Source of the DNA: an uncultured virus (IMG/VR IMGVR_UViG_3300027759_000054)
Taxonomy: Duplodnaviria > Heunggongvirae > Uroviricota > Caudoviricetes
Virus record (IMG/VR): IMGVR_UViG_3300027759_000054
Direction: 5' to 3' (one strand)
DNA length: 64,000 nt
Shown here: piece after piece, positions 4,810 through 20,236 of the stretch
Numbering within the stretch: position 1 is the first letter of the stretch
Layout: each line of letters opens with the position of its first letter
Made by a program: the position numbers and the translations under genes
Notes under the pieces: generated by a model
Database searches by the model: none
What the model saw: only the letters and a program-made list of their open reading frames with translations
What the model was told of the DNA's origin: nothing

Positions 4810-5292
4810 ATGAGCACTATTACCCTTAGATCTGTAAAGGGGACTCCGCTGACGAATACTGAAGTTGATAATAACTTCAGCAATTTGAATACAGATAAGT
4901 ATGAATCTGGCGCTAGTCCTTCTTTTGCAGATTTAACACTTACAGGAACCCTAACCAAATCGGTTTCAGGCACAGTTACAGCAGCGGGTACTACCCAAGG
5001 TACTGCAACTGCGCTAACAAAAACCATTAACATGATCACAACAGCAACAGCAAGTCAGGGCGTAAAACTCCCATCTGCTGCCGCTGGTTTGACAATAAAG
5101 GTTATCAACACCACAGCAGTTACTATTGTTGTGTATCCAAATACCTCAGATGTTATTGACGGTGGAACTGTCAATGTTGGTGTCAATTTGTCACCATATT
5201 CATCTGTTGAATTGGTTGCACAAGATGCTGTAGATTGGTATCGTGTAACTAATTTAATTGTATATGACTCGAGTGGTAACAGGTTAAACTAA
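4810..5292 (+). CDS. Tail fibre-associated/adaptor protein
   Basis: N-terminal LRSVKGTPLTNTEVDNNF fibre-anchor-like motif; Thr-rich; C-terminal IVYDSSGNRLN. Confidence 0.65.
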   Translation: MSTITLRSVKGTPLTNTEVDNNFSNLNTDKYESGASPSFADLTLTGTLTKSVSGTVTAAGTTQGTATALTKTINMITTATASQGVKLPSAAAGLTIKVINTTAVTIVVYPNTSDVIDGGTVNVGVNLSPYSSVELVAQDAVDWYRVTNLIVYDSSGNRLN

Positions 5293-5293
5293 A

Positions 5294-7309
5294 ATGAACC
5301 CTCTAAAGGTCAAGGCAACAGGTTCCCCAATCACTTCTGCAAACATCAGCGGTTTGCAGACCATGACCGACGCAGAGGTAAAAAATTATATTGCCAATGT
5401 TATCACAGAAAAGTTTGCTTCAGTAACAGATGGTACTGGTACTGCTGAAATTAACATTACTACAAATAACTCAGGTGCAGGAACTTCGATCGGCACGTTC
5501 GTCGATACAACAAGAACCGAATCTATCGGAACGCATCCTGCTACTGGTGCAGTCTCTACAACAACATACACTGCTAAACAGGTTACTGCTGCTGCAGTGG
5601 AAAGTATCACCAACAGACCATTAGCATGGGATTCTCGCTTAGAAGAAATGGTAGATGGTGACATTGATAGCACAATGGATCTCTGTGTTGCGGCGATGGT
5701 CGCAGAATCAACATATACTGCTGGACAATATAAACTCCAAGCAACTGCGCCATCAGGCGGAACTTGGGTTTCGCGGTATACATTAACAGATACAGCGCAA
5801 GGTGGAAACACTGTAACATATCTGTGGCAGAAAACAGTTTCATCTTCGGCGCCAACAGTGGATCTCACACCACTAAAATTGTTTGCTGGTAGTAACTGCA
5901 AGCAGATGACTGAAGCAGAAATCGAACAGATGCTTCCAGTCTTTAGAAATAGAATTATTGAAACAGGTATCGGGACATATAAAATACAATCAGATGCGCC
6001 TAGTGGAGGCACTTGGGTTCAAACAGGTAACACATTCACGGATACTCGCGAAGAAGTAACACCACAGAACTACGCTGGTAATTACAGTAGTAATTATACT
6101 GGTAATTATACTGGCAATTATACTGGTCCTTTTCCATATTCTGCACCCTATTCCGCATCGGGAAATTATAGCAGTAATTTTACTGGACCTGCTTATAGTT
6201 CGCCATATACTGGTAATTATACTGGCAATTATACTGGATCCTTTTCCTCCCCTTTAGCATATACTGGAACAACCTATACAGGGTCCAGCAATTATACTAG
6301 ATCCTTTTCCTCCCCTTTAGCATATACTGGATTAACTTATACAGGTCCAGCAAATCCAGGAGCAAATTATACTGGTAATTACATAGGTGGTCCATTTTAT
6401 TCTACACCTGCTGGTCCATCATATTCGAATCCAGCAGGTCCATCATACTCGAATCCAGCAGGTAATAATCCAGGAGGTCCATCATATTCAACACCATATA
6501 CTGGCAGTTATGGAGGGAATTTCGATGGTCCTCGGCCCCAAAGACAAGAGGCAGTATACTATACTGGTGGTACCTTTAGTGCAAACTATACTGGGTTTTA
6601 TACAGGTCCAGGTCTCAACTATACTGGATACTTTGAGATACCTATCTATCCAAATGAACCTGGAGAAGTTTACATAGGAGAGTTTTCGGCACCACAAAAT
6701 TATGCTGGATTCTATGCATCAAATTTAGGTTATGCAGGAAATTTCCAAGGCCCTTCCCTGTATTTTGTTACTGGTTATGACAAACAATATTATACTGGAT
6801 TCTATGCGGGACCACCATCATATTCTACACCTGCAGGATCAAACCCAGCAGGTCCATCATATTCGAATCCAGCAGGTCCATCATACTCGAATCCAGCAGG
6901 TCCATCATATGGTCAGCCGTATGCAGGAACTTATACTGGACCTACAGGTCCAGGAACTTCATATACTGGATTCTATACTGGTCCAGGACCAGCGTACTCA
7001 GGGTTTTTCAGCGGTCCAGGAACTTCATATACTGGATTCTATACTGGTCCAGGACCAGCATACTCAGGGTTTTTCAGCGGAACTCCATATACTGGATTCT
7101 ATACTGGAACAGCGTACACTGGAACCTATACAGGGTATTTCACTGGCGTAGGAATAGCATATACTGGTTTTTACACTGGAACAACAAATTACACTGGAAA
7201 TTACTCAGGAAGTTATATAAATAATTTTACTGGATCATTTTCTGGGGCAACAATACAAGCAACTAAAGAAACAGTGTCATCTGTTAAGTTATGGATAAGG
7301 ACAGCATAA
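5294..7309 (+). CDS. Fibre-like virion protein A with Y/F-x-G-x repeat region
   Basis: About 260-aa N-domain and C-terminal ATKETVSSVKLWIRTA shared with 7313..9052; central Gly/Tyr/Thr/Pro repeats. Confidence 0.7.
   Translation: MNPLKVKATGSPITSANISGLQTMTDAEVKNYIANVITEKFASVTDGTGTAEINITTNNSGAGTSIGTFVDTTRTESIGTHPATGAVSTTTYTAKQVTAAAVESITNRPLAWDSRLEEMVDGDIDSTMDLCVAAMVAESTYTAGQYKLQATAPSGGTWVSRYTLTDTAQGGNTVTYLWQKTVSSSAPTVDLTPLKLFAGSNCKQMTEAEIEQMLPVFRNRIIETGIGTYKIQSDAPSGGTWVQTGNTFTDTREEVTPQNYAGNYSSNYTGNYTGNYTGPFPYSAPYSASGNYSSNFTGPAYSSPYTGNYTGNYTGSFSSPLAYTGTTYTGSSNYTRSFSSPLAYTGLTYTGPANPGANYTGNYIGGPFYSTPAGPSYSNPAGPSYSNPAGNNPGGPSYSTPYTGSYGGNFDGPRPQRQEAVYYTGGTFSANYTGFYTGPGLNYTGYFEIPIYPNEPGEVYIGEFSAPQNYAGFYASNLGYAGNFQGPSLYFVTGYDKQYYTGFYAGPPSYSTPAGSNPAGPSYSNPAGPSYSNPAGPSYGQPYAGTYTGPTGPGTSYTGFYTGPGPAYSGFFSGPGTSYTGFYTGPGPAYSGFFSGTPYTGFYTGTAYTGTYTGYFTGVGIAYTGFYTGTTNYTGNYSGSYINNFTGSFSGATIQATKETVSSVKLWIRTA
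6237..7078 (+). repeat. Coding direct repeats in fibre protein A
   Basis: 63-nt period at 6237/6300; identical 51-nt copies at 6413-6463 and 6851-6901; 66-nt tandem at 6947/7013. Confidence 0.9.
7216..7223 (+). promoter_or_regulatory. Possible internal late promoter for fibre protein B
   Basis: TATAAATA about 90 nt upstream of the 7313 ATG. Confidence 0.45.
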
Positions 7310-7312
7310 AAC

Positions 7313-9052
7313 ATGGTTTTAAGAAATAAATCTTCGGCGACCCCTGTTTCTGCTGTAAACTGGCAGGGTCTACAACAGATGTCAGTTGATGAAGTAAAGA
7401 ATTACATTGCACAAACTCTGACAGTTTCTTTCGGCGCAAACTCAGATGGTACTGGCACTGCTGAAATCAACATCACAACAAACAACAGTGGTTCTGGTAC
7501 TTCAATCGGAACATTTGCTGACACAGATCGCCAAGAAGCAACAGGAACTCACCCAGCAACTGGTGCGGTTGACACTGTCACATACACTGCAAAACAGGTT
7601 ACTGCTGCTGCGGCGGAAAGTATTACCAATCGTCCTTTGAAATATGATGCTGGTATTAAAGAACTGACAGATGCTCAAATTGATAGTGAAATCCTAGATT
7701 ATGCTATTAATGCGATGGTCTCTGAAACAACTTATACTGCTGGGCAATATAAATTACAACCAACTGCTCCGTCGGGTGGTACTTGGGTTTCACGTTATAC
7801 TCTAACAGATGTTGCTAATGGCGGTAATACTACTACATATCTGTGGCAGAAAACTGCTGCAACTACTCTTTCAGACTCCAATCTTAAACCATTAAAACTT
7901 ATTGATACCAAAGATGTCAAAGAAATGTCGTCTTCGGAAATCCTACAGATGCTTCCGAATTTTAGAAACAGAATTATTGAGACAGGAATCGGCACATATA
8001 AGGTCCAATCAACTGCTCCAGTTTCTGGTGGAACATGGGTTCAACTCGGTGATGAGTTTGCTGACACCAGAGAGCAAGTAACACCACAGAACTATCAAGG
8101 TAACTTCGTCGGCAACTATCTCGGCACCTTCTCAGGTTCAAGAAATTATTCTGCAGCATATGCTGGTACATATACTGGAGCATTCGCAAACAACTTTAGT
8201 GGCGGTTATGTTGGTCCAGCAAACTATTCCGCAGCATATTCTGGAGCATTCGCAAACAACTTTAGTGGCGGTTATGTTGGACCAAAAAACTATACTGGAT
8301 CTTACTCACAGGGGTTCAGTGGAAACTATGTCGGTAACTATGTAGGACCAAAAAACTATACTGGATCTTACTCACAGGGGTTCAGTGGAAACTATGTCGG
8401 TAACTATGCTGGTTCTAGAAACTATGCAGGTAACTATGCTGGAAACTATCTCGGAACATATTCGCGAAACTTCACAGGAACTTACTCGCAAGGTTTCTCT
8501 GGTAACTATCTCGGAACATATGCACGATTCTTTGGCGGATTCCTTAATGGAAATTTCCAGGGTAACTATCTTGGAACTTATACGGGCAACTTCTCGGGTA
8601 ACTATCTAGGTAACTTCTCCGGCAACTATCTCGGCACCTATGCTGGTTCTAGAAACTATGCAGGAAATTATGCGGGAACATATCTCGGAACATACACAGG
8701 ATTCTTCACAGGAAACTATCTCGGAACTTCAACATATACTGGAACATATTCGGGTAATTATACTGGATTCTTCTCGGGTAACTATCTAGGAACTGCAACA
8801 TATACTGGCAATTATACTGGTTCCTTCACAGGGTTTTATACTGGATTCTATGCAGGAACTGCTACCTATACGGGCACATACACTGGAAACTTCACAGGAA
8901 ACTACACTGGATTCTATTCAGGTTCTAGAAACTATACAGGTAATTATGCCAGCAACTTTAGTGGAACGTATTCAAGCAACTTCTCTGGCGCAACAGTAAT
9001 TGCGACCAAAGAAACTGTATCGACGATAAAACTTTGGGTTCGCACCGTATAA
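7313..9052 (+). CDS. Fibre-like virion protein B, paralog of A
   Basis: Shared N-domain (DGTGTAEINITTNNSG, GTHPATGAV, YLWQKT) and C-terminal strand; GNY/GTY/GFY tetrapeptide repeats. Confidence 0.7.
   Translation: MVLRNKSSATPVSAVNWQGLQQMSVDEVKNYIAQTLTVSFGANSDGTGTAEINITTNNSGSGTSIGTFADTDRQEATGTHPATGAVDTVTYTAKQVTAAAAESITNRPLKYDAGIKELTDAQIDSEILDYAINAMVSETTYTAGQYKLQPTAPSGGTWVSRYTLTDVANGGNTTTYLWQKTAATTLSDSNLKPLKLIDTKDVKEMSSSEILQMLPNFRNRIIETGIGTYKVQSTAPVSGGTWVQLGDEFADTREQVTPQNYQGNFVGNYLGTFSGSRNYSAAYAGTYTGAFANNFSGGYVGPANYSAAYSGAFANNFSGGYVGPKNYTGSYSQGFSGNYVGNYVGPKNYTGSYSQGFSGNYVGNYAGSRNYAGNYAGNYLGTYSRNFTGTYSQGFSGNYLGTYARFFGGFLNGNFQGNYLGTYTGNFSGNYLGNFSGNYLGTYAGSRNYAGNYAGTYLGTYTGFFTGNYLGTSTYTGTYSGNYTGFFSGNYLGTATYTGNYTGSFTGFYTGFYAGTATYTGTYTGNFTGNYTGFYSGSRNYTGNYASNFSGTYSSNFSGATVIATKETVSTIKLWVRTV
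8135..8940 (+). repeat. 66-nt (22-aa) periodic coding repeats in fibre protein B
   Basis: Near-identical units at 8175/8241 and 8279/8345; GSRNY markers at 8135, 8411, 8645, 8921. Confidence 0.9.
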
Positions 9053-9121: not shown

Positions 9122-9577
9122 ATGACTAGTACCCGCACAATTGAAAATCCTTACTGGGCGAACAAAGAAAAACAACATGTGATTGCGGAGTTCGTTTATT
9201 CCGATACGGGTAAACGAGCAACTGCATCAATTATGAACGATGGTACTAATCGAGATTATGATGAATTGATGAAGAAGTATAGCGTCGAGCAGATTGATGC
9301 GAATACCAAGAAACGGTTTGATGATCGCAATCAACATATCAAGCATAACATTGAACGCCAGAAGGTTGACAAGACTCGTATGCAGCAAGAGCAGTTGTTC
9401 TCTGCTAAATTGGATGCATTTGAGATCGATCTAATTAAGACCTCGAAGAATCGTGAATTGAAGTCGAAAATTCGTAAAGCAAAAAACATCATGGAAGTTA
9501 CTGCGTACACGGTAATTCTTCTTCAGCAGGAAGAAGCAAATACTGCAATCGCAAGAGAAGCAGTTGATGCAGAATAA
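9122..9577 (+). CDS. Hypothetical protein (possible fibre chaperone)
   Basis: GGAG RBS; directly follows the fibre genes; function inferred from position only. Confidence 0.6.
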   Translation: MTSTRTIENPYWANKEKQHVIAEFVYSDTGKRATASIMNDGTNRDYDELMKKYSVEQIDANTKKRFDDRNQHIKHNIERQKVDKTRMQQEQLFSAKLDAFEIDLIKTSKNRELKSKIRKAKNIMEVTAYTVILLQQEEANTAIAREAVDAE

Positions 9578-10262
9578 TGGTTTTCTCTACGTTGCAACAG
9601 TAAGAAAAGGTTATTATAGAGCGGCGAGAAATTCTGCTATATCTCTACGTGACTTCTATCCTGATGCACATATCACATTCTTTACACACGAGGAATGGGT
9701 GCAACCAGATGATTATGAAATCTTCGACACAGTTATTACTGAGAATGTCCCACGCGACAAGCGAGCAAAACTGTGGGCGCTTGATCAAACTCCATACGAT
9801 CTGACAGTATACATGGATTGCGACACTGAAGTCGAGCATGAAGATATCCAAAAGATTTTCGATCAGATTCCGGATGATATCGATGTCATCTTTACTGCTA
9901 ATCGTCCATATAACGCAGCACTGACTAAGTTGTCTGATACAGAAGAAATGACTGAACACTGTGGGTTGTTCGTCTATCGAAACAATGAACAAACATTAAA
10001 ACTCATGCGTGCTTGGTATGATGAGTATTGGGAGCAGAATAAACCAGGATGGAATCGTAAACATTATCCCGAATCTGCGCTGCAGTGGGACACATTCACA
10101 ATGTGGAGACTTCTGAATCATTTCGATTTTGGTGTTAAGACTGCCAGATTCCCTGATCCAGATGCTAGGTGGAACTTTGTTTCCGGATATAAAAAAGAAG
10201 AATTACAGGGGCAACCAGTAGTGATTTATCATTACACAATTCCACATTCTTTATTAACTTAA
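9564..10262 (+). CDS. GT-A fold glycosyltransferase (GT8/nucleotide-diphospho-sugar transferase-like)
   Basis: TPYDLTVYMDCD (DxD), QWDTFTMWRLL, RWNF and IYHY motifs; start may be 9567. Confidence 0.75.
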   Translation: MMQNNGFLYVATVRKGYYRAARNSAISLRDFYPDAHITFFTHEEWVQPDDYEIFDTVITENVPRDKRAKLWALDQTPYDLTVYMDCDTEVEHEDIQKIFDQIPDDIDVIFTANRPYNAALTKLSDTEEMTEHCGLFVYRNNEQTLKLMRAWYDEYWEQNKPGWNRKHYPESALQWDTFTMWRLLNHFDFGVKTARFPDPDARWNFVSGYKKEELQGQPVVIYHYTIPHSLLT

Positions 10263-10272
10263 CAGGACAAAC

Positions 10273-10950
10273 ATGCTACAATTTACAAATTCAGTTTCTA
10301 AAGAACTAAGTGACATTCTAGATCCATTCACAGAATGGTTCTTTGCTCAAAATGATCAACATCTCGTGCTGGGTCCACAAGAGCACCAAGAAAAGCGTAA
10401 AGGTGGATTGAATGTGGACACTGCCACCGACGAACAATATTTAAATCATATTGTCGGTAAGGGTGATAAGCATGTTGGATTTCCTGATGTTGCATGGTGT
10501 ACCGATATGTCTCAGGCACATGGACAAACATGGTTTCCAACCGAATATGGTAGAAGACAGCAAGCAACGAATTCTGAGATAATGAGTTATCTTGGTGCAA
10601 GAAACAATGCGGTGTTTACATATTATCCCGAAAATGGTTTCATGGGTTGGCATACCAATTGGAATGCATCAGGATATAATATTCTGATTACTTACAATAC
10701 AGAAGAAAATGGTGGATACTTCCGCTACCTGGATCCAGTTACGAAGGAAATCGTAACTATGGTTGATCCTATTGGTTGGTCATGCAAGGTTGGTCATTTC
10801 GGCGATCGTAGCGATCCGAATAAAATTGTCTATCATTGCTGTGGTAATACTGCGAAGAGATTGACACTAGGATATGTTGTACCGCATCTAGAAATCTGGC
10901 GGTCAATGATTGAAGATATCTCAGGTGAAGACGCTTCTCACTTTTCCTGA
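10273..10950 (+). CDS. 2OG-Fe(II) oxygenase-like protein
   Basis: YYPENGFMGWHTN, distal YHCC and RLTLGY; resembles a DSBH pattern with an atypical HxN. Confidence 0.55.
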   Translation: MLQFTNSVSKELSDILDPFTEWFFAQNDQHLVLGPQEHQEKRKGGLNVDTATDEQYLNHIVGKGDKHVGFPDVAWCTDMSQAHGQTWFPTEYGRRQQATNSEIMSYLGARNNAVFTYYPENGFMGWHTNWNASGYNILITYNTEENGGYFRYLDPVTKEIVTMVDPIGWSCKVGHFGDRSDPNKIVYHCCGNTAKRLTLGYVVPHLEIWRSMIEDISGEDASHFS

Positions 10951-11675
10951 GTGCTCTTAACCTCACTATATTTTGTGAGCAGATCTTCTAGAATAGTCAA
11001 CTGCTCATGCATTTTTTCAATATCATCTAGTAACTTAGGAACTGCAATTCTTGCTCGCTCGAGGATTGCAGTTTCATAGTTTTTAATTCCAACATTAGTA
11101 GCAGACTTAATTCGACGGTTTCGAAATAATGTTTTAATTTTACTAATCAACGATGGTTGTTTTGGTGTCATGTTTAGTTGAACCATTTGTTGATTACTGC
11201 GCTGTTCAGTTGCCTGTTGTCGTGCTTTTAAAATTTGTTCTTCTTTTATTTTTGCCGCTGCAGCATTTTCTCTAGCAAGTTTTTCATTTTCCTCTTTGAG
11301 GATTTGTAATTCTTCAACTAGTTTCGGATCTGTAACATGAACAGTTTCTATAACTGTTTCGATTACCTTCTCTATTACAACAGGCGGATTTTCTAAAATC
11401 TCTTTTGCTTTAGCAATTGTTTCTGCTGCTACTTTCGATTCTTCTTCTATTGCAAGTTTTTGTCTCTGCAATTCTTCATGTTTTTCTTGTGCGATTCTTT
11501 CTCTATCAAGTTCTTCTTGAGAAGGTTCATTAATCTCAACTTCGATAATTTCTTCTTGAAAGTTTCCATCGACCCACTCTTCCACGACCACTTCCTCGGG
11601 TGGAGGTGGTGCTGATACTAAAGGTTCCGGAATATAATCTTGCGGTGGTGGTGCGACGACTCTTGCTCTTGCCAT
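10938..11675 (-). CDS. Hypothetical Pro/Glu-rich coiled-coil protein
   Basis: 245-aa ORF, last gene of the minus-strand operon. Confidence 0.7.
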   Translation of the reverse strand: MARARVVAPPPQDYIPEPLVSAPPPPEEVVVEEWVDGNFQEEIIEVEINEPSQEELDRERIAQEKHEELQRQKLAIEEESKVAAETIAKAKEILENPPVVIEKVIETVIETVHVTDPKLVEELQILKEENEKLARENAAAAKIKEEQILKARQQATEQRSNQQMVQLNMTPKQPSLISKIKTLFRNRRIKSATNVGIKNYETAILERARIAVPKLLDDIEKMHEQLTILEDLLTKYSEVKSTQEK

Positions 11676-11676
11676 A

Positions 11677-12276
11677 TTATGTCCCCAATTCTATCATGCA
11701 CGTATTGAGATATAATCTGGAGAATTTTAATTTTCTCTCATAGCAGAAATCTCTGACTGCTGCTCTAACTCCAGGATGTAAACTATTATGTATTGAATAA
11801 TCATCAACAAAAATTAATCCATTTTGTTTTACCACATCAAGACTAGATACCAAATCTTCCATCACACCCTCATAACTATGATCACCATCGATATAAATCC
11901 AGTCCAATTTTTCTCCAGTATACGAAGAAAACCAATCCCGAGAAGTCATTCGATGGATAGTTGCAGGTAAATCTTTAAATTGTTCACAAACGTCAAGATA
12001 GAGATCGTCATAAAATTTTTGAAAATCTGCTGGGTCTGTCGAACCTACTAATGAAGAATATCTCTCTAATATTTTTTCGTACCCCATATTCAACCAATCA
12101 GTAGTATTTTCATATACGCTGATATTATATGGATCTATCATATGTAGATAACTACATTTTGTCAAAAGTTGTTTTGACGCATCACCTCTCCAGATACCAA
12201 TTTCTGCACCTACAGAATTTTCTGGAATCCAATTCTCAGTTATTTTTTTAATATCCGTGTTTGTCCCAAGCATCAT
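11677..12276 (-). CDS. Class I SAM-dependent methyltransferase (Methyltransf_24-like)
   Basis: GAEIGIWRG motif I; IYIDGDHSYEGV; GLIFVDDY. Confidence 0.85.
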   Translation of the reverse strand: MMLGTNTDIKKITENWIPENSVGAEIGIWRGDASKQLLTKCSYLHMIDPYNISVYENTTDWLNMGYEKILERYSSLVGSTDPADFQKFYDDLYLDVCEQFKDLPATIHRMTSRDWFSSYTGEKLDWIYIDGDHSYEGVMEDLVSSLDVVKQNGLIFVDDYSIHNSLHPGVRAAVRDFCYERKLKFSRLYLNTCMIELGT

Positions 12277-12933
12277 TTACTTTTTTCCAATTACCATGAA
12301 GCGATCAAAGTTTACTTTGCCATCCCAAGACCAGTAAGACTGTTCGATCTGTCCCTCGTAGAAAACATCAGTAACTCCAACATTCTCAACATGCTCTTCG
12401 ATCGATGGAACACAATTAATACCCCACATCTCTCTAAAAACATTTGACGACTGACAGGCAAAGATACAATCCTTGTTTGCGGTCGTCATTTTATTTAGCG
12501 GATACATTGCCTCGCAACCAATAGAAACTACCACATCAGTTTCTAGTGCATTGATGTCATGATATGCGAATGGAACATCCCAGTTGATATGATTTAATTC
12601 AATACCCTTCTCAGAATAATACCGATTGAACACCATTGATAATTCCAATGCGTCTTTATCAATATCGATCAAGTTAATTTTCTTGACATTTAAATTTTCA
12701 CACAGTAATGGAACAAGTGGAAATCCTAACCAAGAATTTAGAATTGTAATGTCTAATTCTTCTGGAACATCTTTCATCTCCAATAGTTTTTCGACTAACC
12801 AAATGGCAGCATCCATAGTATTCGGATTCATGGACTTGCGGAAGTCCTCGTGTTTCCATGGCATCTCGTTGGCAATCTTATCAAGTCCCTCGCCCCAATA
12901 GCGATAGTTGTTCAAGTAATTATAATTTAACAT
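12277..12933 (-). CDS. Methyltransferase-fold protein (degenerate motif I)
   Basis: ITILNSWLG..INLIDID..DVVVSIGCE..FACQS..RFMVIGKK; start set at MLNYNY. Confidence 0.55.
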   Translation of the reverse strand: MLNYNYLNNYRYWGEGLDKIANEMPWKHEDFRKSMNPNTMDAAIWLVEKLLEMKDVPEELDITILNSWLGFPLVPLLCENLNVKKINLIDIDKDALELSMVFNRYYSEKGIELNHINWDVPFAYHDINALETDVVVSIGCEAMYPLNKMTTANKDCIFACQSSNVFREMWGINCVPSIEEHVENVGVTDVFYEGQIEQSYWSWDGKVNFDRFMVIGKK

Positions 12934-13603
12934 CTTGTGGTCTTTCCATTGAATCGTATAAACAAACGAGCGGTTCAGGTCTGAGAACATGTTCTCTTAC
13001 ATCAATCGGCCAAACATATCCATAGTTATAACTATACACCCAGTTATCTGGAAAGTGTCCGATTTTCAAAAGACGTTCTCTTTGGTGACCGAATAGATTA
13101 TCTAACCCACGATAATAAAAAAACATTTGGTCAGGATAATCTCTTACGAATTTAGTAATTTTGTTTACATCTAATTTATCGTTCCATCTAAGAACGCTTG
13201 AATTTAGATCCGTGTATCTAAACGGAATTTCTTTTGTATCCTCTTTCATTTGCTTCATGTTATGCCAACGAGTTCGAATGAAAGTTAATGTATCTTCTGG
13301 ATTATATTCAACAATACAATCAATATTGTGTTGAATACCTATGTCTAAGTCTAGGAAAAGTTTTTCTCCCATCTGCCGCACGACATTTTTGTCAAACAAG
13401 TAAAGTTTATTCCACCATTTCTCATAGTAATTATCTTCAGGAATGGGAATAACTATGACCTCTGGATCTAAATCTCCAGGGTGTTCTGTAATACAATAAA
13501 ATTTAAATTCGTGAGTTATGTGCTCTCTACACATTTGCAGAATACGATTTACGTATTCTGGTCCATATTTGAACCCCCACTTCACTGTGTAAATATTAAT
13601 CAT
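12920..13603 (-). CDS. Glycosyltransferase-like protein (KWG.KY family) 4
   Basis: VKWGFKY, WWNKLYLF, FLDLD, NSSVLRW; TGATG overlap with the upstream gene. Confidence 0.75.
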   Translation of the reverse strand: MINIYTVKWGFKYGPEYVNRILQMCREHITHEFKFYCITEHPGDLDPEVIVIPIPEDNYYEKWWNKLYLFDKNVVRQMGEKLFLDLDIGIQHNIDCIVEYNPEDTLTFIRTRWHNMKQMKEDTKEIPFRYTDLNSSVLRWNDKLDVNKITKFVRDYPDQMFFYYRGLDNLFGHQRERLLKIGHFPDNWVYSYNYGYVWPIDVREHVLRPEPLVCLYDSMERPQDVKL

Positions 13604-14427
13604 CAAATATTCCAATGCTCTAAAAGATCAGGATCGACTAGTGATTCCTGCTTCACTTTGCCTCTACGATCATCTTGGAACGGCAGTAAATCCACATTAA
13701 ACACGCAGAGAATGCAGTCTTTTCTATATATACCCACGTCAAGATCTCCCGAATCCCAGTCGCGTCCTCGGTTATATGAGTAAGCAAACGTATTTGGAAA
13801 ATGTTTCCATAGAGGAGTATTGCTAAAGTCGCCCCATCGCCAACTGTGGTAGTTGTCGGTTCCATCTGTAAACGTAAACCAAATACGCTCTTGGTTTTCG
13901 AGAACGTCCTGCCAGATACACTCCGTCTGATCATCTGACCATACCATGCAACTACCATTGGTATATGCACCATGAGAGAGTTTGAAGTTGCGCGATTTCA
14001 TCGGTCGTGGATCTTGCCACCATGACCGTAACTTGGTAGGATTCTCTAAGTCATAAGTGATGATTGGCGACAAATCATTTTGTATGATAACATCAAGGTC
14101 GAAGAATACAAATCTTCCAGTGGGGTTATCTTCTGCGAAGTTGTGTGTATTGAAGATAAACGTTTTCGGTCTGTCCCAACAACGTGCCATGCCGTATTTG
14201 AAATCCTCAGATCCAAACCAGTATTTCGGATGGATGTCGGGAATGTCTGGGAAGTCTATTACTTTAATCTCGGCGTCGAATCCTTCGCTGTTATCCGTAT
14301 AGCAATAGAAGTGAAACTCAAAATTATCTGAAGTATGTTTCTTTGCCATTCGATAAAGACGATTGACAAACTCAGCAGAATACTTTGTCCCCCATTTACA
14401 GCAAACGTAATTAACTCTCATTGCCAC
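13603..14427 (-). CDS. Glycosyltransferase-like protein (KWG.KY family) 3
   Basis: CCKWGTKY, FFDLDVII, NGSCMVW. Confidence 0.75.
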   Translation of the reverse strand: MAMRVNYVCCKWGTKYSAEFVNRLYRMAKKHTSDNFEFHFYCYTDNSEGFDAEIKVIDFPDIPDIHPKYWFGSEDFKYGMARCWDRPKTFIFNTHNFAEDNPTGRFVFFDLDVIIQNDLSPIITYDLENPTKLRSWWQDPRPMKSRNFKLSHGAYTNGSCMVWSDDQTECIWQDVLENQERIWFTFTDGTDNYHSWRWGDFSNTPLWKHFPNTFAYSYNRGRDWDSGDLDVGIYRKDCILCVFNVDLLPFQDDRRGKVKQESLVDPDLLEHWNI

Positions 14428-15179
14428 AACCTAATAATATTTTCATCAGTGCATTCCATTAATTTAATTTGTGCCTTTGCACTCGGATGCGGAACATTGT
14501 CTGTGTTGAACAAACATACCTTAGCATCTTTGCGAAACTTAAACCATTCCACATCATCTGGGTGATGCTTTCCACGATTCCACGAATAGATCCATCCTCC
14601 AGGAATATCCTTCCAAAAATCTCTCTGTCTCCAGTAATGGTAATTGTCACTCCCTTTAAAAAACGTTTTGAAAACGGAGTCAGAATTTTGCATGACATCT
14701 TTGTAGATATGTTCACAAGAAACATTAGGCCATAACATCATGCTCGAATTATAGAAAGTGCCTCGAGTATCTATGAACAATCTATCATGTTTCTGCGATT
14801 GTGGTTGCCAACGACATTGAATTATTCTTGGTTTTTCGGATAATTCAATTACCTCTGTTATATCTTCTTGGATTACCACGTCAAGGTCAAAGTAACACCA
14901 GTTTCCAGTATAACCAAGCCAATTATGTGAATTAAATACCAAGAACTTTGCACGGTCAAAACAGAAGGTTTCTTCGCCAAACCAATATTTGGGATGCAAA
15001 ATACCATCGTCTGGTATAGGTGCAGTATCACATTCAATTCCCTCGGCGTTATCTGTAAAACACGTGAATGTATAGGAAGATGGGTTCCGAGAAAAATTCT
15101 TTCGCACCATCTTATATAAGTTGTTTACATACTTGGCAGAGTACTTGTCGCCCCACTTAATGCATACGAAGTTCATCAT
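14418..15179 (-). CDS. Glycosyltransferase-like protein (KWG.KY family) 2
   Basis: CIKWGDKY, YFDLDVVI, NSSMMLW. Confidence 0.75.
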   Translation of the reverse strand: MMNFVCIKWGDKYSAKYVNNLYKMVRKNFSRNPSSYTFTCFTDNAEGIECDTAPIPDDGILHPKYWFGEETFCFDRAKFLVFNSHNWLGYTGNWCYFDLDVVIQEDITEVIELSEKPRIIQCRWQPQSQKHDRLFIDTRGTFYNSSMMLWPNVSCEHIYKDVMQNSDSVFKTFFKGSDNYHYWRQRDFWKDIPGGWIYSWNRGKHHPDDVEWFKFRKDAKVCLFNTDNVPHPSAKAQIKLMECTDENIIRLWQ

Positions 15180-15834
15180 ATTCTTTATCTGCTCCAGGAA
15201 ACTGGTCTAAACCATTTAGTAATGCTATGGTATATTCTGGTCTATACCAGAAAGATTCGTTGTGGTCATCAATTCCATAATAATCTGCTCCATAAACAAA
15301 AGAATAAATTTCACCCTTTGGAAAGTAATTGAATCTAAAATCTTCATGCCAAAGAAATCTATCATCACCAAAGTATTTGACCATGAAGTAATCAGGATCT
15401 GATTGGAAGTGTTCCCAAATATGTTGAACAGTTCCTTCCCTCCACATAACAACACTCGAGTTATAATTACTTAAGAAACGCATACCATGAGTTTCACCAA
15501 CATAGTCTGGAAATTCTTTATTCTTCCAATAAGTATATACTATTGTAGGAAAATTGTCAATAGAATTCCACAAATGATCAATGTTTTTTTGGATCCTTGT
15601 GTCAAGATCCAAGTAAAGAACATCACCCAATCCCCCCAAAGTATACATCCATATTTTAATCCAATGTCCTTCTATGTCTTCAGGCATAGGAATTGCCGTG
15701 ATCAATGGATCTAGACCCGTTGGATCGTCGGTGATACAAGCATAGTTATATTTTCTGTCAGTATCATTTACTATTCTGTTTACATCTGCAGCAGAATATT
15801 TTTCACCATATTTTATCATCAAAATCGTTTGCAT
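15157..15834 (-). CDS. Glycosyltransferase-like protein (KWG.KY family) 1
   Basis: IKYGEKY, YLDLD, NSSVVMW, GDDRFL; start set at MQTILM. Confidence 0.75.
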   Translation of the reverse strand: MQTILMIKYGEKYSAADVNRIVNDTDRKYNYACITDDPTGLDPLITAIPMPEDIEGHWIKIWMYTLGGLGDVLYLDLDTRIQKNIDHLWNSIDNFPTIVYTYWKNKEFPDYVGETHGMRFLSNYNSSVVMWREGTVQHIWEHFQSDPDYFMVKYFGDDRFLWHEDFRFNYFPKGEIYSFVYGADYYGIDDHNESFWYRPEYTIALLNGLDQFPGADKEYDELRMH

Positions 15835-15849
15835 AGTATTCTCAGTTGT

Positions 15850-15874
15850 TATAAATATTCCCGTATAATTTATA
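15850..15874. promoter_or_regulatory. Pair of oppositely oriented late promoters
   Basis: TATAAATA on + (15850-15857) and near-consensus TATAAATT on - (15867-15874) in the 50-nt gap between divergent operons. Confidence 0.55.
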
Positions 15875-15884
15875 AGGGTTTCCG

Positions 15885-16214
15885 ATGGCACAAATTCAAA
15901 ATATTTATATTGACCAAGGAACAACTTTTTCTTTGTCTCTTACAGTAAATGATCAGAATGGAGACATAAAAGATCTTACAGGTTATACTGTAGCGGCACA
16001 AATGCGCAGATCGTATTACACTACTACTTCTACTAGTTTTACTGCAGCAGTTTCTTTGCCCGAAGATGGTGAAGTCACTATTTCATTGACTGCGGTGCAA
16101 ACCTCAGCAATAAAAGCAGGAAGGTATGTTTACGATATTGAAATTACAGGCGATGGTGAAACGCTACGAGTTCTTGAAGGGATCGTTGTAATTAATCCAG
16201 AGGTAACGAAATAA
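15885..16214 (+). CDS. Virion structural protein (BppU N-terminal-like Ig fold)
   Basis: IDQGTTF..DLTGYT..AQMR..GRYVYDIEI..RVLEG motif. Confidence 0.7.
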   Translation: MAQIQNIYIDQGTTFSLSLTVNDQNGDIKDLTGYTVAAQMRRSYYTTTSTSFTAAVSLPEDGEVTISLTAVQTSAIKAGRYVYDIEITGDGETLRVLEGIVVINPEVTK

Positions 16215-19087: not shown

Positions 19088-20236
19088 ATGGCAACGATTT
19101 TACAACTTAGAAGAGGGACTACTGTTCAGCACTCAACCTTCACAGGTGCTGTTGGTGAAGTCACTGTTGACACAACAAAAGATACAGTAGTTGTTCATGA
19201 TGGTACCACCGCTGGTGGTAAACCTCTGGCAACTGAAGCATATGTTACTTCAGCAATTCAGACTAAAGATAACAGTGACGAAATTACAGAAGGTTCAACG
19301 AACCTCTACTTTACAAATACAAGAGCAAGAGACGCATTTAGCGCAAGCACAGGTATTAGTATTACTAGTGGCGCAATTTCATCCACCATTACACAATATA
19401 CAGATGCTCTTGCCCGTGGTGCTGTATCTGTAACTGACTCTGGTGGCGATGGTTCACTAGCATATAACAGTTCGACGGGTGTAATTACTTACACTGGTCC
19501 AAGTGCAACAGATGTTCGCGCTCACTTCAGCGCTGGAACTGGTGTTACTATTACTAATGGTCAAGTTGCTATTGGTCAGGCAGTTGGAACTGGATCAAAC
19601 GTTACGTTCAATGATCTAACGGTAAGCGGTAATCTAACTGTTTCCGGAACTACCACTACAGTAAACACCGAAACAATCAATCTCGCCGATAACATCATTA
19701 CACTTAATAGCAATGAAACCAGTGCTCCTTCTCAGAATGCTGGTATTGAAATTGAGCGTGGTAGTTCCACAAACGTTGCATTTCAATGGAATGAGACTAC
19801 CGATGTTTGGGAATATACGGTAGATGGTACTAACTACATCCCTGTTGTTGGTACTACGGCAACGCAAACTCTTACAAACAAAACTTTAACAAGTCCTGTA
19901 ATTGGTAGTATTGTTAACACTGGTACGCTGACTTTACCAACAAGCACGGATACACTGGTCGGACGTGCTACTACTGATACATTAACCAATAAAACAATCA
20001 GTGGTGCATCAAATACCCTATCGAATATTGGTAACTCGTCACTAACAAATAGTGCAATCACTCTTGCTGGTACATCTGTTTCACTAGGTGGCGCTTTTAC
20101 TGCTACTAATATCCTTGATGCAATCAAAACGGTTGATGGTACTGGTTCGGGACTTGATGCCGATCTTCTCGATGGAAACTCGAGCGCATATTTCCGCATT
20201 AATGTTTACAATTCAGCAGGGACTCTATTGAATTAA
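19088..20236 (+). CDS. Tail fibre protein
   Basis: QLRRGT N-domain; EGSTNLYFT..RAR; QTLTNKT repeats; GSGLDADLLDG. Confidence 0.8.
   Translation: MATILQLRRGTTVQHSTFTGAVGEVTVDTTKDTVVVHDGTTAGGKPLATEAYVTSAIQTKDNSDEITEGSTNLYFTNTRARDAFSASTGISITSGAISSTITQYTDALARGAVSVTDSGGDGSLAYNSSTGVITYTGPSATDVRAHFSAGTGVTITNGQVAIGQAVGTGSNVTFNDLTVSGNLTVSGTTTTVNTETINLADNIITLNSNETSAPSQNAGIEIERGSSTNVAFQWNETTDVWEYTVDGTNYIPVVGTTATQTLTNKTLTSPVIGSIVNTGTLTLPTSTDTLVGRATTDTLTNKTISGASNTLSNIGNSSLTNSAITLAGTSVSLGGAFTATNILDAIKTVDGTGSGLDADLLDGNSSAYFRINVYNSAGTLLN

What the first reader, a model, noticed from the sequence alone, without database searches (positions are those of the whole stretch)
7313..9052. Fibre protein B has exact length symmetry, suggesting a long out-and-back hairpin
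Seen: an aromatic residue every 4th position (Y/F-x-G-x) with periodic kinks. GSRNY markers at nt 8135, 8411, 8645 and 8921 define two arms of exactly 92 aa each (26+22+22+22). The arms flank a 78-aa centre with a distinct tip (ARFFGGFLNG) and differ in sequence (GPxNY versus GTxTY units). The C-terminal ATKETVSTIKLWVRT strand is conserved in the paralog. Inference: the repeat region is an antiparallel needle inserted into a globular base domain, with length set by coordinated duplications in both arms. I do not recognise this fibre architecture.
Basis: partly seen in the sequence, partly recalled or inferred. Interest (0 to 1): 0.78.

Follow-up and report, generated by a model that had tools for sequence, protein, structure and literature searches.

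The report
Single-chain tyrosine-glycine hairpin phage fibre
A protein of an uncultured T4-like water phage most likely runs out about 145 residues, turns and zips back along itself as one thin two-stranded ribbon, held by a three-lobed knob that plugs as a single copy onto a three-chain stalk; this is a way of building a virus fibre that matched no known protein family or solved structure.

Summary
Observation confirmed. The hairpin reading is strongly supported. In the B clade (defined by the base domain alone), return arm minus outgoing arm is exactly +6 in 46 of 63 proteins with a tip motif, over arm lengths of 41-277 aa (slope 0.98, r 0.992). At one antiparallel register no aromatic faces another aromatic (0 of 1290), 96% face Gly/Ala/Ser, and all 184 kinks tested have a mirror partner (shuffles at most 91). 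The base is three tandem repeats in one chain, weakly like MABP beta-prisms. A predicted complex of a single-copy relative placed one fibre chain on three copies of the upstream 160-aa protein, one repeat per copy (score 0.88, best control 0.00). So the fibre is probably a monomeric two-stranded ribbon of up to about 48 nm, not a gp37-type six-stranded iron needle (no HxH in 168 proteins). Against this: AlphaFold2 did not fold the long insert of B, and about one in six B proteins is asymmetric. Host binding is inferred. This scan already noted the hairpin on other genomes. The 3:1 cap on a trimer is what I add; a word search of earlier notes found no match for it.

The parts
4810..5292 (+). 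160-aa upstream protein, predicted trimeric stalk/adaptor; its last 12 residues (nt about 5254-5289, IVYDSSGNRLN) are the predicted docking site
   Evidence: C-end motif in 51 of 53 genes directly upstream of family genes vs 1 of 352 other ORFs (motif defined after seeing the data); complex of the L085 homolog, 53% identical
5294..7309 (+). Paralog A, 671 aa: same three-repeat base and return strand, irregular Pro-rich insert with a variable centre
   Evidence: A-clade antiparallel score above all 8 shuffles in 50 of 52 tested, window A itself only tied its best shuffle
7313..7624 (+). B base repeat 1 (aa about 1-104), docking hairpin around QGLQQM
   Evidence: hhalign repeat 1-3 91%, 1-2 87%; AF2 pLDDT 79-93; interface mapping
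7625..7876 (+). B base repeat 2 (aa about 105-188), short hairpin in place of the insert
   Evidence: hhalign repeat 2-3 98.7%, E 2.5e-16
7877..8092 (+). B base repeat 3, first part (aa about 189-260), from which the long hairpin leaves
8093..8518 (+). Outgoing arm, (Y/F)-x-G-x repeats, aa 261-402, kinks at GSRN 275, GPAN 301, GPKN 323 and 345, GSRN 367
   Evidence: 34 of 34 aromatics face G/A/S at i+j=816
8519..8554 (+). Tip/turn YARFFGGFLN(G), aa 403-414; motif Y-x-x-[FY][FY]-[GAS]-G also in minimal relatives
8555..8992 (+). Return arm, aa 415-560, kinks at GSRN 445, GTST 471, GTAT 493 and 515, GSRN 537
   Evidence: 25 of 34 core aromatics face G/A/S, 9 face Q/R/K/N
8993..9052 (+). C-terminal return strand that completes base repeat 3
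   Evidence: AF2 strand E553-577, pLDDT 74-91 over the last 19 residues; motif at the C-end of 113 of 140 remote relatives
9122..9577 (+). 151-aa gene that follows the fibre gene in most related loci; possible assembly factor (inferred)
   Evidence: no PHROG match; no Pfam match at cut-off
19088..20236 (+). 382-aa Mtd_N protein ending in the same docking-type motif (VYNSAGTLLN); candidate second stalk for A or B
   Evidence: only other + strand window ORF with the motif; Pfam PF18454; binding not tested

Best explanation
B is the tip protein of a virion fibre in an uncultured T4-like aquatic phage. One chain folds three tandem repeats into a pseudo-threefold, beta-prism-like knob. Each repeat offers an equivalent hairpin to the C-terminal Tyr motif of one chain of a trimeric stalk (the upstream 160-aa protein), so a single fibre chain caps a trimer (predicted). 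The hairpin loop of repeat 3 is extended into a two-stranded antiparallel beta-ribbon. On one face every Tyr/Phe lies across a Gly of the other strand, and two-residue kinks come in matched pairs (Arg-Arg, or Gly-Gly with Pro on one side only) that keep the register (shown by covariation). The ribbon in the window is about 145 residues each way, at most about 48 nm if extended (3.3 A per residue assumed). Length is tuned by tandem duplication or loss of 4- and 22-residue units, and forms that restore pairing in both arms are retained (pattern shown; selection or exchange of the distal cassette inferred). It most likely serves as a long, thin, flexible probe that makes first contact with the host surface through its aromatic tip or aromatic face (inferred; no receptor evidence).
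For: Arm co-variation: 46 of 63 exact, 53 of 63 within 4-8, slope 0.98, r 0.992, 25 different arm lengths; outside the A and B clades 30 of 37 within 4-8; remote set 33 of 42 with one tip within 2-10; sister contrasts r 0.95. Register: 0 of 1290 aromatic-aromatic, 95.9% aromatic-G/A/S; kink type fixes the offset in 75 of 75 and 114 of 114 pairs; 184 of 184 mirror kinks vs shuffle mean 55.8, max 91. AF2 of 314-aa P0134: strands 229-265 and 277-312, mean pLDDT 80.6. Three repeats. Top four structural matches of that model are MACPF C-terminal, perforin-2 P2 and MVB12B MABP domains, Z 5.1-6.4, next 3.2. Complex of L085 (3 x 160 aa + 1 x 330 aa): score 0.88, best of 3 controls 0.00, runs agree in at least 94% of contacts, partner pLDDT at least 84; the mark was reached by 116 of 157 solved complexes and 2 of 215 mismatches; Tyr152 of each copy touches residue 22, 117 or 203, one in each repeat. 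One family gene per locus in L063-L114. Location among T4-like structural genes.
Against: AF2 of B left aa 261-556 mostly under pLDDT 50, and that low-confidence part aligned to solenoids; even in P0134 the repeat part is only 52-69. 10 of 63 B proteins lie outside 4-8, including a lineage seen in several records with +20 to +25, so exact symmetry is not obligatory. The register counts used only the 42 distinct inserts already at +6. 101 of 176 remote sequences had no tip motif and could not be tested. A same-direction reading also matches 156 of 184 kinks. Covariation cannot tell pairing within a chain from pairing between identical chains. The complex was run on a relative with a short insert, with my own alignments and a 3:1 layout unlike the calibration; it is a model score, not a measurement. 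The MABP match is under Z 8. No host, virion image or proteome.
Confidence: 0.66

Rival explanations
1. The hairpins of several chains bundle: three B chains (or A and B chains) form a six-stranded antiparallel needle like T4 gp37, with layers of Tyr/Phe and Gly filling the core in place of iron-His sites.
For: Aromatic-opposite-Gly fits a narrow barrel core equally well, and covariation does not distinguish pairing within from pairing between chains. Doubling back to a base domain is the gp37 design (PMC12609058 passage).
Against: The base already holds three repeats and used all three to bind one trimer in the model. A and B lengths are never equal and only loosely linked (25 pairs, Pearson 0.44, Spearman 0.37). 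Many relatives have one gene. A homotrimer was not modelled.
Confidence: 0.17
2. The chain goes out and back in register but not as an extended beta-ribbon: a tightly coiled two-stranded helix, or paired polyproline-II-like strands, so that the fibre is much shorter and thicker or corkscrew-shaped.
For: 22% Gly; Pro-rich irregular blocks in A; AF2 gives no confident geometry for long inserts; kinks every 22 residues could set a pitch.
Against: The 4-residue period with alternating faces and strict cross-pairs suits beta geometry; GGxGG/GGG motifs occur once in 66 B inserts; AF2 of P0134 gives continuous beta strands.
Confidence: 0.11
3. The insert is a parallel solenoid or a flexible low-complexity spacer, and the symmetry is a by-product of direct duplication.
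For: The low-confidence AF2 model of B resembles solenoids; the kink order is the same in both arms of the window protein; 156 of 184 kinks also fit a shift.
Against: The mirror fit is complete (184 of 184) and type-specific; 66-nt units are more alike within an arm (up to 60 of 66) than between arms (32-43 of 66); a spacer has no reason to keep its tip central from 19 to 277 residues.
Confidence: 0.04

Closest known systems
Needle tip of T4 long tail fibre gp37 (and lambda Stf, Bas63 fibres); passages of PMC12609058 and PMC7291167 read
   Same: The chain doubles back at the tip and returns to a base (collar) domain; long antiparallel beta needle; T4-like phage fibre.
   Different: gp37 is a homotrimer with a six-stranded needle held by HxH-iron sites. 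Here there is no HxH in 168 proteins, the repeat is aromatic/Gly, the base has three repeats in one chain, and no collar family match was found.
T-even gp38 adhesin on gp37 trimer (phage S16, PDB 6F45); passages of PMC6851490 read
   Same: A single Gly-rich chain caps a homotrimeric fibre through a pseudo-threefold interface; the tip gene directly follows the trimer gene.
   Different: gp38 docks by three Trp on helices into pockets and carries a beta-helix and a polyglycine-II sandwich. Here the trimer's C-terminal Tyr strand meets three beta-hairpins, and the distal part is a long two-stranded ribbon.
MABP beta-prism of MVB12B and of MPEG1/perforin-2; passages of PMC6753088 read
   Same: Top structural matches of the base; in MPEG1 one elongated beta-hairpin extends from the prism and binds membranes with a hydrophobic, basic tip.
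   Different: Z only 5.1-6.4, rmsd 3.7-5.0 A, 6-11% identity, no sequence-family match; added helices; a hairpin many times longer and built from repeats; phage context.
Hypothetical protein WJE88074.1 of Phage C48C1 (Kyanoviridae, OQ984149.1), 3347 aa
   Same: Same base (27.6% over 92% of aa 1-260), aromatic-x-Gly-x tracts, same type of C-terminal strand, followed by a 153-aa gene.
   Different: Giant, with inserted domains; uncharacterised; host not given in the record; the gene before it lacks the docking motif.

Membership tests
T4 gp37-type needle tip | Chain doubles back and returns to the base domain | tested here: met
T4 gp37-type needle tip | HxH motifs binding iron along the needle | tested here: not met
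   0 of 168 inserts hold HxH; His 0.01% of B inserts
T4 gp37-type needle tip | Homotrimer with six-stranded needle | tested here: inconclusive
   Homotrimer not modelled; the three-repeat base and the 3:1 model point to a monomer
T4 gp37-type needle tip | Phage tail collar domain at the base | tested here: inconclusive
   No collar family among Pfam matches of 52 members at E up to 1; not listed in structure searches
T-even gp38 adhesin | Single chain capping a trimeric fibre | tested here: met
   Model only, on relative L085: 0.88 vs best control 0.00
T-even gp38 adhesin | Polyglycine-II sandwich from glycine-rich motifs | tested here: not met
   One GGxGG/GGG in 66 B inserts; the 6F45 match (Z 7.2) lies on the unreliable part of the model
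T-even gp38 adhesin | Sequence homology to gp38 | tested here: not met
   No PHROG, Pfam or PDB-sequence match
T-even gp38 adhesin | Binds the host receptor | not testable with these tools
   No host known
MABP beta-prism | Three internal repeats forming one prism (definition recalled) | tested here: met
   hhalign 87-99% between repeats; repeated hairpin-helix-strands pattern in the AF2 model
MABP beta-prism | Structural superposition on solved MABP domains | tested here: inconclusive
   Z 5.1-6.4, 111-118 residues, rmsd 3.7-5.0 A; top four of 48,161 chains but under Z 8
MABP beta-prism | Lipid binding through the extended hairpin tip | not testable with these tools
   Analogy only (PMC6753088 passages)

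The most novel reading that the evidence does not exclude
A new class of fibrous protein fold: a free-standing, single-chain, two-stranded beta-ribbon tens of nanometres long (about 90 nm in the longest B relatives if extended, more in giant members) whose register is written as a self-complementary residue code (aromatic opposite Gly; Arg-Arg and Pro/non-Pro kink pairs), much like an RNA stem, mounted on a beta-prism that converts a trimeric stalk into a monomeric tip, and used across a large group of aquatic T4-like phages to reach the host.
Probability: 0.55. Interest if true: 0.86.

Novelty: new variant of a known kind. Interest (0 to 1): 0.74.

Why it matters
Known phage fibres are mostly trimers. 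A monomeric two-stranded ribbon with a readable pairing code would add a fibre architecture, give a function class to a large unannotated family (743 clusters at 50% identity, E up to 0.001, some perhaps matched through the repeats alone), and offer a length-programmable protein rod whose rules can be tested directly: natural members run from almost no insert (287-291 aa) to over 3,000 aa. The predicted 3:1 dock names both partners and the residues to mutate, so the claim is testable without culturing the phage.

Tried and rejected
Family scans of B, A and the 160-aa protein: no PHROG or Pfam match; 52 relatives gave only compositional Gly-zipper matches and weak scattered hits; adaptor alignment nothing useful. 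PDB sequence search with the family profile: best E 0.11. Foldseek of B against PDB and BFVD and of P0134 against PDB: nothing at E up to 0.001. ESM Atlas: only unnamed viral clusters. My first idea that the base is a T4 collar or gp10 C-terminal domain (recalled motifs) found no support in these searches; that does not exclude it. The solenoid matches were set aside because they lie on residues under pLDDT 50. An obligatory A/B hetero-needle was considered and judged unlikely from lengths. A first tip count mixing A- and B-type proteins (61 of 116 at +6) was replaced by clades from the base-domain tree. The first remote-set test (last part) had a faulty anchor and was redone. Whether single-fibre genomes lack a second motif-bearing stalk was tried on five records: one of them (L144) has a 712-aa relative with the motif, and the C-ends of the others were not read, so the idea of one stalk per fibre is neither supported nor excluded. 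Paper searches found no description of this fibre or of phage C48C1; most subscription papers and all supplements were outside these searches.

Full report
Setting. The window is the structural region of a T4-like phage: neck, terminase, sheath, tube, portal and major head genes follow downstream, and the major head protein is at most 67% identical to those of Methylophilales, Pelagibacter and Synechococcus phages. The finding is a 579-aa ORF, B (7313-9052), preceded by its paralog A (5294-7309, 671 aa) and a 160-aa gene. None of the three matches PHROGs or Pfam.

Observation. The 26+22+22+22 spacing runs in the same direction in both arms, which alone would suggest a direct duplication. Read antiparallel at i+j=816, however, 34 of 34 outgoing aromatics face Gly, Ala or Ser, and 25 of 34 returning core aromatics do (9 face Gln, Arg, Lys or Asn). 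The arms are about 145 residues each and the turn about 12.

Arm lengths in relatives. I gathered 191 distinct sequences; 23 lacked an anchor (18 the C-terminal motif, mostly fragments) and 168 were kept. A tree of the base domain alone gave a B clade of 66 rows (SH-aLRT 100), an A clade of 60 (87) and 42 others. Of the 66, 63 have one [FY][FY]GG tip; return minus outgoing arm is +6 in 46 and 4-8 in 53, with 25 different outgoing lengths from 41 to 277, slope 0.98, r 0.992; permuting arms gave at most 9 exact matches in 10,000 tries. Outside both clades 30 of 37 with one tip fall in 4-8. In 176 further, more remote sequences only 42 had a single recognisable tip; 33 of these fall in 2-10, and 101 had no tip motif. 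In 31 non-overlapping closest pairs that differ in length, both arms changed equally in 15 and within 2 residues in 21 (r 0.95). Exceptions exist: two records lack one 22-mer in the return arm, five have +20 to +25 (one lineage, several records), and three lack the tip and look like collapses between direct repeats (the collapse is my inference).

Pairing code. In the 42 distinct inserts at +6, one register gives 0 of 1290 aromatic-aromatic pairs and 95.9% aromatic-G/A/S pairs; this decays as the register is slid. In the 40 with equal kink numbers every kink has a partner at exactly 2 residues from the mirror position, and the type fixes the sign: G-x-R kinks pair only with G-x-R (75 of 75, offset -2, Arg opposite Arg), and Pro-bearing kinks pair with non-Pro kinks (114 of 114, offset +2, Gly opposite Gly, never Pro on both sides). 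In 38 proteins with two or more kinks, 184 of 184 are mirrored, against a mean of 55.8 and a maximum of 91 when segments are shuffled; a same-direction shift matches 156. These rows are related, so the counts are not independent events. At DNA level, 66-nt units are more alike within an arm (57, 60, 51 of 66 for the closest) than between arms (32-43): the arms grew separately. Tyr or Phe packing over a cross-strand Gly is a known stabilising pair in antiparallel sheets (recalled; my search found no paper). The A clade is more irregular but scores above all 8 shuffles in 50 of 52 tested (of 60); window A itself tied its best shuffle there and beat 6 shuffles.

Structure. AlphaFold2 of B is confident for the base and the last strand but under pLDDT 50 over most of aa 261-556, where it resembles solenoids. 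A complete 314-aa relative, P0134, folds at mean pLDDT 80.6 with one hairpin (strands 229-265 and 277-312; repeat part 52-69). The base consists of three tandem repeats (hhalign 98.7% for 2-3, 91% for 1-3, 87% for 1-2); the insert extends the hairpin of the third. The four best of 48,161 solved chains are two MACPF-type proteins matched by their C-terminal parts, the perforin-2 P2 domain and the MVB12B MABP domain (Z 5.1-6.4, rmsd 3.7-5.0 A, 111-118 residues; next 3.2). That the first two are also beta-prisms is recalled. This is suggestive, not decisive. In MPEG1 an elongated hairpin leaves the MABP prism and binds lipid at its tip (PMC6753088, passages).

Partner and stoichiometry. Loci L063-L114 show one family gene each, some cut by contig ends. 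In two-gene loci A is longer than B in 25 of 25 distinct pairs with weak coupling. The gene directly upstream varies from 142 to 1186 aa but ends in a Tyr-x-x-x-Gly motif in 51 of 53 distinct cases, against 1 of 352 other ORFs (motif defined after inspection). From the three repeats I predicted that one fibre chain caps a trimer of this protein, and tested it on the single-copy locus L085 (3 x 160 aa + 330 aa). Score 0.88, best of three controls 0.00; runs agree in at least 94% of contacts; partner pLDDT at least 84; the mark was reached by 116 of 157 solved complexes and 2 of 215 mismatched pairs, counts that hold only roughly for this layout. Tyr152 of the three copies touches fibre residues 22, 117 and 203, the equivalent hairpin of each repeat. 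The L085 stalk is 53% identical to the window's, and about half of the 42 interface residues are identical in A (21) and B (22). No solved like complex was found by sequence, but this remains a model of a relative.

Mechanism. Shown by covariation: antiparallel, in-register out-and-back pairing. Predicted: beta-hairpin geometry, three-repeat base, 3:1 docking. Inferred: a thin ribbon of at most about 48 nm (91 nm for the longest B arm) on the virion that contacts the host, B with a conserved aromatic tip and A with a variable one; matched length change by selection on separate duplications or by exchange of the distal cassette. Which stalk carries A and which B is open; a 382-aa protein at 19088-20236 ends in the same motif.

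Comparison. It works like T4 gp37 in doubling back to a base, but gp37 is a six-stranded trimer with HxH-iron sites (PMC12609058 and PMC7291167, passages), and none of 168 inserts has HxH. It works like S16 gp38 in capping a trimer with one chain (PMC6851490, passages) but has no polyglycine-II motifs and no homology. It is a member of neither family. The only deposited complete phage found with a relative is C48C1, with an uncharacterised 3347-aa protein. Paper searches (listings and abstract starts only) found no description; subscription papers and supplements were not covered. Earlier notes of this scan reached the fold-back reading on other genomes, which I saw after forming my own reading; a word search for the adaptor and beta-prism part found none.

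Verdict. Real, conserved, and not explained by a known family: a new variant of the phage fibre tip, with about even or better odds of being a new fibrous fold. Interest 0.74.

Noticed in passing
window 19088-20236: 382-aa Mtd_N protein ends in the same Tyr-x-x-x-Gly motif as the 160-aa stalk; it may carry the second fibre paralog. A 712-aa relative in L144 also ends so.
   Followed up: partly
window 9122-9577: 151-aa gene follows the fibre gene in most related loci, and a 153-aa gene follows it in phage C48C1; no family match; possible assembly factor.
   Followed up: partly
window 9564-15924: Run of small enzyme-like genes (one with a weak glycosyltransferase 2 match) next to the fibre genes and present in many related loci; could modify the Ser/Thr/Asn/Tyr-rich fibre.
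   Followed up: no
window 4731 and 7216: TATAAATA (T4 late promoter consensus, recalled) just before the 160-aa gene and again inside A, 97 nt before B; 14 copies on the + strand of the window.
   Followed up: no
L062:9995-20038 (Phage C48C1): 3347-aa relative with Arg-rich repeat tracts, several inserted globular domains and an apparently duplicated block; mirror symmetry not tested.
   Followed up: no
P0135, P0224, P0259: Complete 287-291-aa members with almost no insert; good crystallisation targets for the base and minimal tip.
   Followed up: partly
P0001, P0002, P0003, P0005, P0007, P0017, P0018 and P0004, P0027, P0032: Database records with an extra base repeat or with the tip missing; possibly assembly errors between direct repeats, or real variants.
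   Followed up: no
L015:4980 / P0014, P0015, P0018: A lineage whose return arm is 19 residues longer than usual, seen in several records: a tolerated one-sided bulge.
   Followed up: partly
P0043, P0052: Members with a pure 4-residue repeat (YTGT/YSGP) and no kinks, yet a central tip.
   Followed up: no
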